The notes: generated from the sequence alone by a model not told the origin. A stretch of DNA of 44,421 bases from a virus (IMGVR_UViG_2529292911_000009), one strand, 5' to 3'. Shown: positions 24,911-43,344, counted from the first letter of the stretch. Program-made: numbers and translations.

Positions 24911-25185
24911 CTCAACAATGGAAAAATTCTTGCGACGTTCCCGCGTGCGCGTATTACCAGCACGCAGAACAGCAGATTAAAAAACACTTCCAGCCAGCCC
25001 GTTGCTAATGGGCGACCACACAGATAGCTGAGGGGCGCAAAGGCATACAGCAGCATCAGCAGCCAGGCCAGCCATGACATCAGCGGTTTATGTCTGGAAT
25101 CACGGCGACGATAAAAAAAGAGCGTCAGCACGATAACCGTGCATAACGCCACATTCAGCAATCCGGGAAGGTTACTTAACATTGC
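24907..25185 (-). CDS. lysis-associated membrane protein (holin or antiholin candidate)
   Basis: About 92 aa with 3 predicted transmembrane segments; overlapping start/stop with neighbours. Confidence 0.5.
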   Translation of the reverse strand, partial: AMLSNLPGLLNVALCTVIVLTLFFYRRRDSRHKPLMSWLAWLLMLLYAFAPLSYLCGRPLATGWLEVFFNLLFCVLVIRARGNVARIFPLLR

Positions 25186-25564
25186 CGCCTCCTCCACCCC
25201 GCAGGCGGGAGAACAGGCCGGACACCAGCGATGCAATATCCTGCTGGTGGATGAACGACAGAATCTTCACCGACACCACTGACACCAGCACTGCACACAA
25301 TGCGTCGACAGGCGCTCCGTCAAACCCTGTATGCTTTACCAGCCAGGATGCCAGAACCTCTGCGCCCAGCACACCGATAATGAACGACACCAGAAAATGC
25401 GCCGCCACACGCCAGGCTGAAAGCGCCTGCGGCATCGTTGCCACAAATAACGCCCCGGCGAACGCACCAAACACAATCCCGAAATCCGTTCCGGTAAACA
25501 ACCCGTACACCGTCGCCCCGCCGAGCGCCGCAGCCGTGCCGGAACCGGATAAGGGTTCAGACAT
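25172..25564 (-). CDS. putative holin
   Basis: About 130 aa with several hydrophobic helices and a Gly-rich charged C-terminus; first gene after the late terminators; AGGAG RBS. Start taken at MSEPL. Confidence 0.5.
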   Translation of the reverse strand: MSEPLSGSGTAAALGGATVYGLFTGTDFGIVFGAFAGALFVATMPQALSAWRVAAHFLVSFIIGVLGAEVLASWLVKHTGFDGAPVDALCAVLVSVVSVKILSFIHQQDIASLVSGLFSRLRGGGGGNVK

Positions 25565-25580
25565 ACTTTTTCTCCTGTAA

Positions 25581-25606
25581 ATAAAAAAGGGCCACCAGCG
25601 GCCCGT
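25581..25606 (-). terminator. intrinsic terminator immediately upstream of the lysis genes
   Basis: Minus strand gggccgctggtggccc hairpin followed by TTTTTTATTT. Confidence 0.7.
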
Positions 25607-25923
25607 AAAAAAACACCCCATCAAAGACACCCGCAGATGCCTTTTATGTGGTGTTATCTGATGTGATGTGCGCCTGACGTGGCTCGGAGAAAATGAAATA
25701 AAGCTTATCTGAAATTAAGGTTAATCCGGGGATTTAAACCATTTTTAAAGCTTAGTAATATCAAATCGTCTCCTGGAGGAGACTGATGCTTATTCTTCTT
25801 CACGGACTTTGTCCCGCGGCGTTAATCCGACAGCCGCGCTTTTTTTGCGCTCAGTTCATTATTAGCTTTCATGGCCTTGCCACACGGGTAATATCAATGC
25901 CCGTGTATTCTTTTCTGAGTTCA

Positions 25924-25954
25924 GAATAAAAAAACCGCCCGATAGAGGCGGTTA
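25924..25954 (-). terminator. intrinsic terminator downstream of the tRNA array
   Basis: Minus strand aaccgcctctatcgggcggtt hairpin followed by TTTTTTTATTCTG. Confidence 0.75.
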
Positions 25955-26220
25955 AGGATGCATTTCCAGGTTTTGCTTAATATATGATTAATCTCAATGT
26001 CATGGTGTTATTTACAACACCAGAATGATGCATCATCGGCCCCTGCCAGAAACATTGCAAATCTCTACCAATAATGCACCATTCCGGTGACGTAAAAAAT
26101 GGCACTGGTGCTGCAAGCGATATCACTCCTTACAGTACAGGGCGAGGTAAGGAGTCAGGAAAAACGCCCCACATAAAATGTGTCAGTGCCTAACACAACC
26201 TAGTATCAATCGTCCTCTGC

Positions 26221-26295
<75 letters not shown>

Positions 26296-26298
26296 ATA

Positions 26299-26374
<76 letters not shown>

Positions 26375-26376
26375 AC

Positions 26377-26453
26377 TGGACCGCCACCGGGGACTCGAAC
26401 CTCGCACACTCAACTTAAAGGGTTGACGCTCTTTCCTGATGAGCTAGTGGCGG
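26377..26453 (-). tRNA. tRNA-like gene, anticodon loop CCUUUAA (nominally Lys UUU), atypical
   Basis: Cloverleaf can be drawn (acceptor CCGCCAC/GTGGCGG, D stem GCTC/GAGC, T loop TTCGAGT, CCA) but it has C at position 33, C1-G72, U73 and one T-stem mismatch. Confidence 0.45.
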
Positions 26454-26454
26454 C

Positions 26455-26530
26455 TGGTGGCCCTTGCTGGATTTGAACCAGCGACCTGGCGATTATGAGT
26501 CGCTCGCTCTCACCACTGAGCTAAAGGGCC
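26455..26530 (-). tRNA. tRNA with CAU anticodon, ileX-like (tRNA-Ile2 lysidine type) or Met
   Basis: Acceptor GGCCCTT, anticodon loop CUCAUAA, T loop TTCAAAT. Closely resembles E. coli ileX as recalled. Confidence 0.7.
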
Positions 26531-26629
26531 GGGCGCAGGATAATAACGTTACGAAATCAATGTTGCAAGCATTCAAAAATCACCCTTATCTCCTCCACCA
26601 GCGCATTCACCATGTCTATCCGAGATAAG

Positions 26630-26659
26630 TGGCACAAAAAACCCGCTTGTGGGCGGGTT
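26630..26659 (-). terminator. intrinsic terminator just downstream of the Q-like gene (tR'-like)
   Basis: Minus strand aaacccgcccacaagcgggttt hairpin followed by TTTTTTG. Confidence 0.6.
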
Positions 26660-26724
26660 TTGTTTGCTTTTGCCATCACGTACAAAATCGGCAAAATATC
26701 AGATTTGCATGAAATATATGCCTT

Positions 26725-27420
26725 TCAATCTACTTTTGCAACACTTTGCTTTGAAAATGCCGCCTTTTGTTTTGAACGTGTTCTCATTACAAACAATAAA
26801 GCCTCACTATCAAGTCGGTGAAAAATGTGTTTCATTGCAACCCAGTGACGAGTAAATGTTTTGGACCAGTTTTTAGTTGTCACTCCCGCCAGTAATGCCA
26901 GCTCCTGGTATTCATAACCTTCCCCACCAAAAAGTTCTGCTTTTAATGCCTGCGCCGCCAGCCAGATTAATTTTTTCAGGCGTTCCTGCGTTTTCCCTGC
27001 AATTTTTCTGGTACCGGATTGAGTATTAAATTCATTCCACGCCCACTGTGTTATCGCGATCTGATATTCCCAACAAATACTCCCGCTGTAACACCACAAC
27101 AACCAGGCTTTATGATGTTCTTCAAGAGACAGAACTGCCCGTCGCCATGATGATGTCGAAAACTCAACCTGACTTACCAGAGCAATTGATGAGCCTTTCG
27201 CCAGTGATTGTTTTCCCGGTATCGGTGGACTATCCCGCGTTATCATTCTTCCAGTCACTTCATCGCGGTACCGGATTTTTTTACGCCTGTAACGCCCTGT
27301 ATCAAACATGGCATTCTCCTGCCAGGCTTCAAGCTGACCTTTTGTTGCCCCACTCAAATCAGCGGTAGCGATAATGAGCTGCTCACGCACAAACTGTAAA
27401 TACTGGTTATTCATGCGCAC
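26725..27420 (-). CDS. putative late-gene antiterminator (Q-like)
   Basis: 231 aa, between rusA and the late terminators/tRNAs/lysis genes, the canonical Q position. Family not confirmed from sequence. Confidence 0.45.
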   Translation of the reverse strand: MRMNNQYLQFVREQLIIATADLSGATKGQLEAWQENAMFDTGRYRRKKIRYRDEVTGRMITRDSPPIPGKQSLAKGSSIALVSQVEFSTSSWRRAVLSLEEHHKAWLLWCYSGSICWEYQIAITQWAWNEFNTQSGTRKIAGKTQERLKKLIWLAAQALKAELFGGEGYEYQELALLAGVTTKNWSKTFTRHWVAMKHIFHRLDSEALLFVMRTRSKQKAAFSKQSVAKVD

Positions 27421-42187: not shown

Positions 42188-42277
42188 TGGCGGAGAGAGG
42201 GGGATTTGAACCCCCGGTGGAGTTGCCCCCACTCCGGTTTTCGAGACCGGTCCGTTCAGCCGCTCCGGCATCTCTCC
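42188..42277 (-). tRNA. serU: tRNA-Ser (anticodon CGA), serU-type
   Basis: 90 nt with long variable arm, anticodon loop CUCGAAA, CCA encoded. 5' end GGAGAGATGCCGGAGCGG. Confidence 0.85.
42203..42249. repeat. att-type direct repeat, right copy (inside intact tRNA-Ser)
   Basis: Matches 151-197 with 3 mismatches; two of them form a compensatory base-pair change in the tRNA variable arm. Confidence 0.75.
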
Positions 42278-43268: not shown

Positions 43269-43344
43269 TCCTCTGTAGTTCAGTCGGTAGAACGGCGGAC
43301 TGTTAATCCGTATGTCACTGGTTCGAGTCCAGTCAGAGGAGCCA
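43269..43344 (+). tRNA. asnT: tRNA-Asn (anticodon GUU)
   Basis: TCCTCTGTAGTTCAGTCGGTAGAACGGCGGACTGTTAATCCG...GAGCCA, anticodon loop CUGUUAA. Confidence 0.9.

What the first reader, a model, noticed from the sequence alone, without database searches (positions are those of the whole stretch)
26377..26453. Atypical tRNA-like gene with C33 and C1-G72
The third gene of the array folds as a cloverleaf, but the anticodon loop is CCUUUAA (C rather than the near-universal U at position 33), the acceptor starts C1-G72 with U73, and the T stem has an A-C mismatch. It may be a Lys(UUU) isoacceptor with odd identity elements, a pseudo-tRNA, or a tRNA-like decoy.
Basis: seen in the sequence. Interest (0 to 1): 0.45.

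Follow-up and report, generated by a model that had tools for sequence, protein, structure and literature searches.

The report
Prophage Arg-type tRNA turned "Lys" with C33
This is a real tRNA gene in an E. coli prophage tRNA operon: a copy of a phage arginine tRNA whose anticodon loop has two point changes, so it now reads as lysine and lacks the near-universal U33, and whether it still decodes is not settled.

Summary
On the minus strand, 26377-26453 encodes a 77-nt cloverleaf with loop CCUUUAA (C33, anticodon UUU), C1-G72, U73 and an A51·C63 mismatch. No other register restores U33.

It is the second of four tightly packed tRNA genes, CAU/Ile2-type, this gene, Thr-UGU and Gly-UCC. They lie between antiterminator Q and the holin of a lambdoid E. 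coli prophage.

It is unrelated to host tRNA-Lys. It belongs to a broad phage tRNA-Arg family, mostly UCU, that includes argN of Shiga-toxin phages. Related prophages carry CAU-Arg(UCU)-Thr-Gly in the same order. C1-G72 is a family trait, U73 is shared with argN, and A51·C63 also occurs in canonical Arg(UCU) members.

Only U33C and C35U (CUUCUAA to CCUUUAA) change decoding. The allele is in 798 of 5,426 complete E. coli genomes, and by my estimate nearly half of those copies carry further damage.

My leading reading (about 0.5) is a decoding-impaired Arg(UCU) derivative kept as a folded processing unit. The main rival (about 0.3) is a Lys(UUU) decoder that host tRNA nucleases (PrrC, PARIS, P2-OLD) do not recognise. 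Interest is moderate to low.

The parts
26377..26453 (-). The tRNA gene in question: 77 nt, anticodon UUU, loop CCUUUAA (C33), C1-G72, U73, A51·C63, encoded CCA. It is the slot-2 gene of the operon and an orthologue of phage tRNA-Arg(UCU)/argN.
   Evidence: ARAGORN; Rfam tRNA 44.4 bits; family table and alignment
26455..26530 (-). First gene of the operon: a CAU-anticodon tRNA of the ileZ/Ile2 type. PGAP names it tRNA-Ile. It is separated from the next gene by 1 nt.
   Evidence: (72.5 bits); 100% identical to the CAU gene of loci L239 and L231
26299..26374 (-). Third gene: tRNA-Thr(UGU), identical to host thrU except U20C. The spacer on its 5' side is 2 nt.
26221..26295 (-). Fourth gene: tRNA-Gly(UCC), identical to host glyT except the compensatory pair change C6U/G66A. 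The spacer is 3 nt.
26540..26568 (-). Sigma-70-like promoter TTGCAA-17-TATTAT with a G+C-rich discriminator (CCTGCGCCC), ending about 10 nt upstream of the first tRNA. It is a candidate promoter for the operon itself.
   Evidence: Consensus scan; the TATTAT-CCTGCGCCC element is also present upstream of ileZ in VT2-Sakai. Inferred, not shown.
26638..26661 (.). G+C-rich hairpin with T runs on both strands, in the position of a lambda tR' terminator between Q and the tRNA operon.
26713..26741 (-). Second promoter-like site, TTGCAA-17-TATATT, just downstream of Q. It is a candidate late promoter pR'.
   Evidence: inferred from its position
26179..26197 (-). Terminator-like hairpin 24 nt downstream of the last tRNA.
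26725..27414 (-). Late antiterminator Q gene, upstream of the operon.
   Evidence: Pfam PF06323, 299 bits; PGAP annotation of an identical region
25172..25630 (-). Holin gene, the first lysis gene downstream of the operon.
   Evidence: Pfam PF16931, 78.8 bits

Best explanation
Shown:
- The gene is a genuine, cloverleaf-folding tRNA gene.
- It is second in a four-gene tRNA operon between antiterminator Q and the lysis genes of a lambdoid E. coli prophage.
- It descends from the phage tRNA-Arg family that fills this slot in related prophages: Arg-UCU in CAU-Arg-Thr-Gly arrays, and argN (Arg-UCG) in Shiga-toxin phages.
- Against the closest canonical Arg(UCU) alleles, which have the same anticodon stem UCAAC/GUUGA, its loop differs by two transitions, U33C and C35U. 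CUUCUAA became CCUUUAA.

Inferred:
- Loss of C35 removes arginine identity.
- U34U35U36 plus 36-UAA-38 would let LysRS and the t6A enzymes act on it.
- U73 in place of A73, and C33 in place of the U that makes the U-turn, should make it at best a weak lysine decoder.

My leading reading is that it is a decoding-impaired derivative of the Arg(UCU) gene. On this reading its body persists for two reasons. The allele is young. The spacers are only 1-3 nt, so an RNase P-recognisable acceptor/T-arm is needed to release the 3' end of the upstream Ile2-type tRNA. It spread by hitch-hiking on a successful Q-tRNA-lysis module.
For: Origin and context:
- The scaffold CCGCCAY...GGCGG-N73-CCA is shared with more than 60 distinct phage tRNA genes, most of them canonical Arg(UCU) with loop CUUCUAA and A73.
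- L254 carries CAU-Arg(UCU)-Thr(UGU)-Gly(UCC) in the same order. Its neighbours are 96-100% identical to the window, and its slot-2 gene is 88% identical.
- L232 differs from the window gene at only 7 of 77 positions, including positions 33 and 35.
- Family covariation supports the cloverleaf: 98.1% of cells paired, 7 pairs with changes on both sides, 0 of 500 shuffles as high.

Signs of impairment or decay:
- Canonical family members score 54-58 bits on the Rfam tRNA model. This gene scores 44.4.
- Non-U33 occurs nowhere else in the loci examined (79 of 79 non-family tRNAs have U33). Within the family it marks this lineage, a YeP1-like lineage with chaotic loops that its own record labels 'tRNA-Pseudo-TTG', and L257, an Arg(UCU) with C33 in a visibly decaying array.
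- Decay of single genes in these arrays is common: a dead Thr copy in L231 and a Gly remnant in L230.
- Derived Lys-type copies are broken repeatedly: a D-stem 1-nt deletion in PPompW prophages, anticodon-arm deletions in Stx2c phages and one IMG/VR contig, and U8C.
- PGAP leaves the 97.4% and 96.1% identity forms unannotated. From the evenly spaced sample I estimate these at nearly half of the 798 genomes.

Need and processing:
- AAA/AAG are not rare codons, whereas ATA, ACA, GGA and AGA/AGG are enriched in the prophage. The lost Arg(UCU) function was therefore the useful one.
- The spacers of 1, 2 and 3 nt can be read directly from the sequence.
Against: - The major haplotype has every stem intact except the A·C state that the family tolerates.
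- The allele is about 2.5 times commoner in E. coli genomes than the canonical Arg(UCU) alleles: 798 against 294+16.
- It sits in very different flanking backgrounds. That is unexpected for a long-dead gene.
- C33 never varies in 113 copies, while C32 does.
- No U33 version on the same stem exists in IMG/VR or the JGI metagenomes.
- Per-gene divergence is Ile 0.3%, Lys 1.2%, Thr 1.7%, Gly 2.8% and upstream region 2.2%. The gene is not decaying faster than its neighbours.
- From memory of older literature, not checked here: U33 substitutions lower but do not abolish decoding (Bare et al. 1983; Dix et al. 1986; Ayer and Yarus 1986), and LysRS readily charges foreign tRNA bodies that carry U35 (Normanly et al. 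1990).
Confidence: 0.5

Rival explanations
1. It is an anti-defence tRNA. An Arg-family body was switched to anticodon UUU, so the prophage makes a lysine decoder that host-tRNA-specific nucleases do not recognise. C33 lies at the PrrC scissile bond (33|34). A foreign anticodon stem replaces the sites used by PARIS AriB and P2-OLD. On induction it would keep AAA/AAG decoding alive when host tRNA-Lys is cut.
For: - tRNA-Lys(UUU) is the target of PrrC, which cuts 5' of U34 (PMC3025547).
- It is also the target of PARIS AriB, which cuts U36AAUC|A41. U39A alone abolishes that cleavage, and Thr-UGU and Asn-GUU are further targets (PMC12409363).
- It is a secondary target of P2-OLD, which needs a paired CNG motif at 28-30/40-42 (PMC12445682).
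- Phage tRNA-Lys genes rescue infection from PARIS and PrrC (PMC11464382, PMC11555353).
- The lambdoid phage 21 Thr(UGU) rescues from P2-OLD.
- The window gene has G39-U40-U41 where host lysT has U39-C40-A41. It has A30-U40 where argN has the CNG-forming G30-C40.
- AAA is not a rare codon, so codon supply does not explain a Lys gene.
- The allele is the commonest of its family in E. coli, and C33 is invariant.
- UUU anticodons arose at least twice more on this scaffold, in L230 and L172.
- The t6A determinant 36-UAA-38 is present, and bacterial TsaBD makes no base-specific contact with position 33 (PMC13276492).
Against: - Differing from host tRNA-Lys in the anticodon stem follows automatically from Arg-family ancestry. 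It is not evidence of selection.
- The companion Thr(UGU) is a near-exact copy of host thrU, including the AriB and OLD sites. The operon as a whole is therefore not built for nuclease resistance.
- U73 and C33 should both weaken lysylation or decoding.
- Many lineages carry broken copies.
- The other two UUU cases sit in decaying or aberrant genes.
- No data on the effect of U33C on PrrC were found in the papers read.
Confidence: 0.3
2. It is a non-decoding tRNA-like decoy. The RNA is made and folded but is not used in translation. It binds and titrates an anticodon nuclease or another tRNA-binding defence protein.
For: - The body is conserved while the anticodon loop is non-canonical.
- The sister YeP1-like lineage keeps all stems intact while loop positions 35-38 vary freely. 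Its loops are CAUUGCC, CAUUGCU, CAUUGAU, CAUUAUU, CAUUUAA and CAUAUAA. That pattern fits selection on the body rather than on decoding.
- The authors of PMC12409363 raise competitive inhibition of AriB by over-expressed viral tRNAs as a possibility.
Against: - There is no direct evidence.
- The same pattern is explained by a requirement for RNase P processing.
- In PMC12445682 the resistance of the rescue tRNAs was judged not to be competitive inhibition.
- Broken copies are common.
Confidence: 0.08
3. It is an ordinary supplementary Lys(UUU) isoacceptor that raises lysine decoding capacity for A-rich phage genes.
For: - AAA use in the prophage early region is high, at 49 per 1000 codons.
- PGAP annotates the intact form as tRNA-Lys.
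- The other three genes of the operon match codons enriched in the prophage: ATA, ACA and GGA.
Against: - AAA is already among the best-supplied codons. K-12 has several tRNA-Lys(UUU) genes: lysT and lysW appear, and the rest are from memory.
- A supply gene would be expected to keep U33 and A73.
- The ancestry is Arg, not Lys.
Confidence: 0.07

Closest known systems
argN, the tRNA-Arg(UCG) of the ileZ-argN-argO cluster of Shiga-toxin phages (933W, VT2-Sakai, Stx2a_F349)
   Same: - It occupies the same slot: second gene after an ileZ-type CAU tRNA, downstream of Q.
- It has the same scaffold, with C1-G72, CCGCCAY/RUGGYGG acceptor strands, U73 and T loop UUCGAGU. The F349 form even shares CGAGG/CCCCG with A51·C63.
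- Identity to the window gene is 80.5-84.4%.
   Different: - argN has a canonical loop CUUCGAA, with U33 and anticodon UCG.
- Its anticodon stem carries the G30-C40 pair.
- Of the 13 differences from the F349 form, 9 lie between positions 30 and 47 (my count from the sequences).
Phage tRNA-Arg(UCU) of CAU-Arg-Thr-Gly and CAU-Arg prophage arrays (IMG/VR loci L232, L239, L254, L197, L231; also in about 310 complete E. coli genomes)
   Same: - These are the closest relatives, at 88-91% identity.
- L232, L239, L254 and L197 have an identical anticodon stem UCAAC/GUUGA; L231 has UCAGC/GCUGA.
- The array order and the flanking genes are the same: the CAU gene is up to 100% identical and Gly is 100% identical in L254.
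   Different: - They have loop CUUCUAA (U33, C35).
- Most have A73 (G73 in L254, U73 in L231) and A51-U63 or G51-C63.
- They score 54-58 bits on the Rfam tRNA model, against 44.4 for the window gene.
E. coli tRNA-Lys(UUU), lysT family
   Same: - The anticodon is UUU.
- The loop is identical at 6 of 7 positions (CUUUUAA against CCUUUAA).
- 36-UAA-38 is present.
   Different: - The body is unrelated: a different acceptor stem (G1-C72 in lysT), anticodon stem and T stem.
- lysT has A73 where this gene has U73, and U33 where this gene has C33.
Nuclease-evading phage tRNAs: T5 tRNA-Lys(UUU) against PARIS, SP15 tRNA-Lys against PrrC170, phage 21 and other phage Thr(UGU) against P2-OLD
   Same: - It is phage-encoded.
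- It has the same anticodon as the nuclease target.
- It differs from the host tRNA in the anticodon arm at or near the cleavage sites.
   Different: - Those tRNAs were shown to decode and to rescue infection. This one is untested.
- The passages I read describe their resistance changes in the anticodon stem and make no mention of position 33.
- This one comes from a different isoacceptor family.
Eukaryotic cytoplasmic initiator tRNA-Met with C33 (from memory, not checked here)
   Same: It is a naturally occurring functional tRNA with C at position 33.
   Different: It is an initiator that binds the P site directly, it is eukaryotic, and it is unrelated in sequence.

Membership tests
tRNA (Rfam RF00005) | Cloverleaf with the conserved core: U8, A14, G18G19, T loop UUCRA, 7-nt anticodon loop | tested here: met
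   44.4 bits against a gathering score of 29, full-length match to model positions 1-71. ARAGORN calls it. U8, A14, G18G19 and UUCGA can be read in the sequence.
tRNA (Rfam RF00005) | U at position 33, which makes the U-turn | tested here: not met
   The loop is CCUUUAA, and no alternative register pairs. In the same loci, 79 of 79 non-family tRNAs have U33.
Prophage tRNA-Arg family (argN / Arg-UCU, slot 2 of the Q-proximal array) | Shared scaffold: C1-G72, acceptor CCGCCAY/RUGGYGG, D arm GCUC...GGA.AGAGC with A20, T arm CGRGG-UUCGAGU-CCYCG | tested here: met
   Alignment A1 and covariation counts; family table.
Prophage tRNA-Arg family (argN / Arg-UCU, slot 2 of the Q-proximal array) | Position immediately after the CAU (ileZ-type) tRNA, downstream of Q and upstream of lysis or stx genes | tested here: met
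Prophage tRNA-Arg family (argN / Arg-UCU, slot 2 of the Q-proximal array) | Arginine anticodon with C35, the major ArgRS identity element together with A20 (identity rule from memory) | tested here: not met
   The anticodon is UUU, so U35 replaces C35. A20 is retained. The gene is a descendant of the family but is no longer an Arg tRNA.
E. coli-type tRNA-Lys(UUU) isoacceptor | Anticodon U34U35U36, the main LysRS identity set (from memory) | tested here: met
E. coli-type tRNA-Lys(UUU) isoacceptor | Discriminator A73 | tested here: not met
   The gene has U73. lysT has A73.
E. coli-type tRNA-Lys(UUU) isoacceptor | Common descent with lysT-family genes | tested here: not met
   The acceptor, anticodon and T stems are unrelated to lysT. 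The nearest relatives are Arg genes.
E. coli-type tRNA-Lys(UUU) isoacceptor | Aminoacylation with lysine and decoding of AAA/AAG | not testable with these tools
   This needs acid-gel Northern blots or tRNA-seq and in vitro charging.
Nuclease-evading (anti-defence) phage tRNA | Same anticodon as a tRNA targeted by a host or prophage nuclease | tested here: met
   UUU is the target of PrrC, PARIS AriB and, secondarily, P2-OLD.
Nuclease-evading (anti-defence) phage tRNA | Sequence differs from the host tRNA at the recognition or cleavage site | tested here: met
   Positions 39-41 are GUU against UCA in lysT. The CNG pair 30-40 is A-U. C33 flanks the PrrC cut. The stem differences follow from ancestry, so this is weak evidence.
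Nuclease-evading (anti-defence) phage tRNA | Resists cleavage and rescues translation or infection | not testable with these tools
   No experimental data were found. A full-text search for the sequence returned nothing.

The most novel reading that the evidence does not exclude
A temperate lambdoid phage has converted its Arg(UCU) tRNA into a lysine decoder by an anticodon switch. On this reading the fixed U33C change is adaptive: it protects the 33|34 bond from PrrC-type anticodon nucleases, while the foreign anticodon stem escapes PARIS AriB and P2-OLD. This would be a naturally selected, functional C33 elongator tRNA in bacteria, and the first Lys-type anti-defence tRNA described in prophages carried by about 15% of E. 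coli genomes.
Probability: 0.25. Interest if true: 0.65.

Novelty: new variant of a known kind. Interest (0 to 1): 0.35.

Why it matters
- Annotation: public annotation calls the intact form of this gene tRNA-Lys in several hundred E. coli genomes and leaves the other forms unannotated. Its Arg-family origin and its C33 loop mean that label is a guess about function.
- If the gene is a relic, it shows how prophage tRNA operons decay while keeping folded bodies. It also cautions against counting such genes as added decoding capacity.
- If it decodes lysine despite C33, it would be a natural test case for how essential U33 is.
- In that case it would also extend the tRNA-based anti-defence strategy, so far shown mainly for virulent T5-like phages, to common E. 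coli prophages. The change would sit at the exact bond cut by PrrC.

Tried and rejected
- Re-folding. No alternative anticodon-stem register pairs, so U33 cannot be restored.
- Single-sequence minimum-free-energy folding. It fails to give a cloverleaf even for the thrU copy and the CAU tRNA, so it says nothing here.
- Decay-rate tests.
  - Haplotype analysis of 94-114 copies of each gene in IMG/VR and per-gene divergence show all four genes with similar low divergence and occasional broken copies.
  - These tests therefore cannot separate a relic from a functional gene.
- Search for a U33 precursor or a C33+UCU intermediate on the same stem.
  - IMG/VR gave none.
  - The only U33 UUU member (L230) and the only C33 UCU member (L257) have different stems and sit in decaying arrays.
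  - The single JGI metagenome hit is an unrelated tRNA-Lys in a large array.
- Species range. The exact T-arm/acceptor motif occurs in only four of the 185,579 species representative genomes. E. coli and Shigella are the only enterobacterial ones. The other two hits (an archaeal and a Pirellulales MAG) were not examined.
- Literature.
  - Searching for ileZ, argN and argO together found nothing.
  - Searching for the sequence itself found nothing.
  - The supplement of the P2-OLD paper, which holds its phage tRNA library, is not available as text.
- Chance match or non-gene: rejected, given the covariance-model score, the covariation across the family and the operon context.

Full report
**1. 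What is in the sequence**

ARAGORN finds six tRNA genes in the window. Four are packed on the minus strand: Gly-UCC at 26221-26295, Thr-UGU at 26299-26374, Lys-UUU at 26377-26453 and a CAU tRNA at 26455-26530. The Rfam tRNA model matches all four. The gene in question scores 44.4 bits (gathering score 29), while its neighbours score 65.6-72.5.

Read 5' to 3', the gene is CCGCCAC UA GCUC AUCAGGAAA GAGC G UCAAC CCUUUAA GUUGA GUGUG CGAGG UUCGAGU CCCCG GUGGCGG U CCA. Shifting the anticodon stem by one position gives G-A or A-A oppositions. No re-folding restores U33.

**2. Context**

A 100% identical stretch lies in E. coli CV839-06. There PGAP annotates tRNA-Ile, tRNA-Lys, tRNA-Thr and tRNA-Gly between 'bacteriophage antitermination protein Q' and holin genes of a prophage.

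In the window itself, Q is at 26725-27414(-) (Pfam PF06323, 299 bits). A holin is at 25172-25630(-) (PF16931).

Between Q and the tRNAs the consensus scan finds three sites in this order:
- a promoter-like site at 26741-26713;
- a strong hairpin with T runs at 26638-26661;
- a second promoter-like site, TTGCAA-17-TATTAT, at 26568-26540, followed by a G+C-rich discriminator about 10 nt before the first tRNA.

This is the pR'-tR' layout of lambdoid phages with an added tRNA operon. That reading is inferred from position. The intergenic spacers are 1, 2 and 3 nt, so the four genes must be co-transcribed and separated by processing.

**3. Relatives**

The array occupies the place of ileZ-argN-argO of Shiga-toxin phages. 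argN shares the scaffold of the window gene: C1-G72, acceptor CCGCCAU/…GG, U73 and the same T loop. It has a canonical loop CUUCGAA with anticodon UCG.

A scan of IMG/VR for the 5' half of the scaffold showed that argN and the window gene belong to a much larger phage tRNA family. More than 60 distinct sequences were recovered. Most are ordinary tRNA-Arg(UCU) with loop CUUCUAA or CUUCUAC and A73.

Several come from arrays with the same architecture as the window. L254 carries CAU-Arg(UCU)-Thr(UGU)-Gly(UCC). L197 carries CAU-Arg-Gly-Thr. L232, L239 and L231 carry CAU-Arg.

In L254 the CAU, Thr and Gly genes are 96.1%, 98.7% and 100% identical to those of the window, while the slot-2 gene is 88.3% identical. 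In L239 and L231 the CAU gene is 100% identical and slot 2 is 88-90% identical.

The closest canonical allele, L232, has the same anticodon stem UCAAC/GUUGA. It differs from the window gene at seven positions: 20a, 26, 33, 35, 44, 63 and 73. The window gene is therefore an orthologue of a phage tRNA-Arg(UCU), not a diverged tRNA-Lys. Its body is unrelated to host lysT.

An alignment of 20 family members supports the cloverleaf by covariation. In it, 98.1% of cells are paired, 7 pairs show changes on both sides, and 0 of 500 shuffles reach the observed values.

**4. Which oddities belong to the gene and which to the family**

- C1-G72 is invariant in the family.
- U73 is shared with all argN forms and with L231, an E. 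coli-prophage Arg(UCU).
- The 51:63 pair varies across the family: A-U in 6 members, G·U in 6, G-C in 2 and unpaired in 6. Members carrying A·C include the otherwise canonical Arg(UCU) genes L186 and L194.
- The window combination, CGAGG as in L232 with CCCCG-GUGGCGG-U as in L231, looks like a mixture of two allelic T stems. That is inference.
- Host thrU, the only Thr-UGU tRNA of E. coli according to PMC12445682, itself has an A·C in its T stem. Such a mismatch does not disqualify a tRNA.
- Canonical family members score 54-58 bits on the Rfam model. About 14 bits of the deficit against the neighbours therefore come from the scaffold, and about 10-13 bits are specific to this allele.
- The changes that matter are U33C and C35U.

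**5. How unusual C33 is**

I ran ARAGORN on all loci fetched, about 250 prophage fragments. All 79 distinct tRNAs outside the family have U33. Inside the family, 49 have U33, 15 have C33 (all variants of this allele) and 7 have A33.

The A33 group consists of Yersinia phage YeP1 and relatives. It has an extra nucleotide before the anticodon stem and loops that differ from one another: CAUUGCC, CAUUGCU, CAUUGAU, CAUUAUU, CAUUUAA and CAUAUAA. A related copy with the same scaffold has a 5-nt loop. YeP1's own record labels its copy 'tRNA-Pseudo-TTG'.

One further C33 case, L257 (CCUCUAA, Arg-UCU), lies in an array whose CAU gene is visibly degenerate.

**6. Distribution and state of the allele**

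The Lys-type allele is in 798 of 5,426 complete E. coli genomes. Of these, 279 copies are identical to the window. Canonical Arg(UCU) alleles of the family are in 294+16 genomes. Among the species representative genomes, the only enterobacterial ones with the exact motif are E. coli and Shigella.

All 113 Lys-type copies in IMG/VR keep C33, while C32 varies: C32U twice and C32A once.

Derived forms are often damaged:
- a 1-nt deletion in the D stem, in PPompW prophages of EHEC;
- a C4U/U8C/C11U form;
- single pair-breaking changes;
- deletions of the anticodon arm, in Stx2c phages (L132) and in one IMG/VR contig.

In the evenly spaced sample, PGAP annotates the 100% and 98.7% forms as tRNA-Lys and leaves the 97.4% and 96.1% forms unannotated. 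From that sample I estimate the unannotated forms at nearly half of the carriers.

The neighbours also show broken copies in some loci. Mean divergence among Lys-type loci is Ile 0.3%, Lys 1.2%, Thr 1.7%, Gly 2.8% and upstream non-coding 2.2%. The whole module is young, and these numbers cannot tell a constrained gene from a neutral one.

No U33 version on the same stem, and no C33+UCU intermediate on it, was found in IMG/VR. The single JGI metagenome hit to the U33 pattern is an unrelated tRNA-Lys.

**7. What the operon is for**

The Thr gene equals host thrU apart from U20C. The Gly gene equals host glyT apart from a compensatory C6U/G66A change.

In the near-identical prophage of CV839-06, ATA, ACA and GGA are used at 11.4, 18.7 and 12.4 per 1000 codons in the early region, and AGA and AGG at 8.8 and 7.3. 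From memory, these are well above E. coli averages.

The canonical array CAU-Arg(UCU)-Thr(UGU)-Gly(UCC) therefore matches four A-ending codons that the host supplies poorly. AAA is not such a codon. The mutation removed the useful AGA/AGG reader and produced a reader of a codon the host already serves well.

**8. Mechanistic readings**

*(a) Relic or processing unit, my first choice at about 0.5.* U33C and C35U are loss-of-function hits in an Arg(UCU) gene. The body persists because the allele is young. It also persists because, with 1-3 nt spacers, RNase P cleavage at its 5' end is what frees the 3' end of the upstream Ile2-type tRNA. From memory, RNase P reads the acceptor/T-arm stack and not the anticodon arm, and Mohanty and Kushner (2007) showed RNase P separating closely spaced E. 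coli tRNA operons. This reading also explains the YeP1-like lineage, where the body is conserved and the loop drifts.

*(b) Anti-defence lysine decoder, about 0.3.* tRNA-Lys(UUU) is cut by three nucleases:
- PrrC cuts 5' of U34 (PMC3025547).
- PARIS AriB cuts at U36AAUC|A41, and U39A abolishes that cleavage (PMC12409363).
- P2-OLD cuts less efficiently, at paired CNG motifs in the anticodon stem (PMC12445682).

Phage tRNA-Lys genes rescue infection from PARIS and PrrC. A lambdoid phage 21 Thr(UGU) rescues from P2-OLD. SfI-type lambdoid phages carry Asn(GUU) and Thr(UGU) at this very position (PMC3636060).

The window gene has G39U40U41 instead of U39C40A41, A30-U40 instead of the CNG-forming G30-C40 of argN, and C33 next to the PrrC scissile bond. 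The t6A determinant 36-UAA-38 is intact, and TsaBD does not read base 33 (PMC13276492). The allele's high frequency and the invariance of C33 fit this reading.

Against it:
- The stem differences are inherited, not acquired.
- The Thr copy in the same operon is host-like and so should be sensitive.
- U73 and C33 should weaken function.
- Broken copies are frequent.

*(c) Decoy, about 0.08, and (d) plain supply of tRNA-Lys, about 0.07.* Both are less well supported. The evidence for and against each is listed under the rival explanations.

**9. Comparison with what is known, and novelty**

The kind of element is known: Q-proximal tRNA operons of lambdoid prophages, including ileZ-argN-argO. The gene itself is already annotated as tRNA-Lys in RefSeq.

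Three things appear not to have been described, as far as the searchable literature shows:
- The gene is an Arg-family orthologue with an anticodon switch.
- C33 is fixed in the whole lineage.
- It is the commonest allele of its family in E. coli.

I classify it as a new variant of a known kind, with moderate to low interest at 0.35. The interest would rise to about 0.65 if C33 proved to be an adaptive escape from PrrC-type nucleases in a still-functional lysine tRNA. I give that about 0.25.

Noticed in passing
L129 2728-2802 (Yersinia phage YeP1); IMG/VR loci L165, L217, L196, L172, L150, L182, L192: A sister lineage of the same scaffold keeps its acceptor, D, T and anticodon stems intact. 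It has A33, an extra nucleotide before the anticodon stem, and anticodon loops that differ from copy to copy: CAUUGCC, CAUUGCU, CAUUGAU, CAUUAUU, CAUUUAA, CAUAUAA and one 5-nt loop. A conserved body with a freely changing loop is not what uniform decay predicts.
   Followed up: partly
window 26221-26374 (-): The Thr(UGU) and Gly(UCC) genes of the operon are near-exact copies of host thrU (1 difference) and glyT (a compensatory C6U/G66A pair). In the host, tyrU separates these two genes. They look like host genes captured by the prophage.
   Followed up: yes
L231 about 2795-2870; L230 downstream of 1395-1471; L257 upstream of 13956: Related prophage arrays hold clearly dead neighbours that ARAGORN does not call: a heavily mutated Thr(UGU) copy after an intact Arg(UCU), a 3' remnant of tRNA-Gly, and a degenerate CAU gene. 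Gene-by-gene decay is common in these operons.
   Followed up: partly
window 26636-26709 (-): There are weak, sub-threshold Rfam matches to the Salmonella prophage sRNAs isrJ and isrK (24.5 and 22.7 bits). They cover the short promoter-to-terminator unit between Q and the tRNA operon, which is probably the pR'-tR' leader RNA.
   Followed up: no
window 25928-25997 (-): There is a weak CyaR/RyeE-like match (23.5 bits, gathering score 47) that ends in a strong terminator hairpin at 25953-25933. It lies between the tRNA operon and the holin gene and could be a small prophage RNA.
   Followed up: no
window 42188-42277 (-) and 43269-43344 (+): Host tRNA-Ser(CGA) and tRNA-Asn(GUU) lie at the integrase end of the prophage. 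In the near-identical strain CV839-06, the integrase next to tRNA-Ser and the tape-measure gene are annotated as frameshifted, so the prophage may be defective there.
   Followed up: no
L132 401-466 (Stx2c phage PV98-693) and about 20 similar Stx2c records: Stx2c-converting phages carry the Lys-type scaffold with the anticodon arm deleted, in place of argN. The records leave it unannotated.
   Followed up: partly
L131 671-876 (phage phi367, downstream of argO): There is a strong match to the sRNA family STnc100 (158 bits) just downstream of the ileZ-argN-argO cluster of an Stx-type phage.
   Followed up: no
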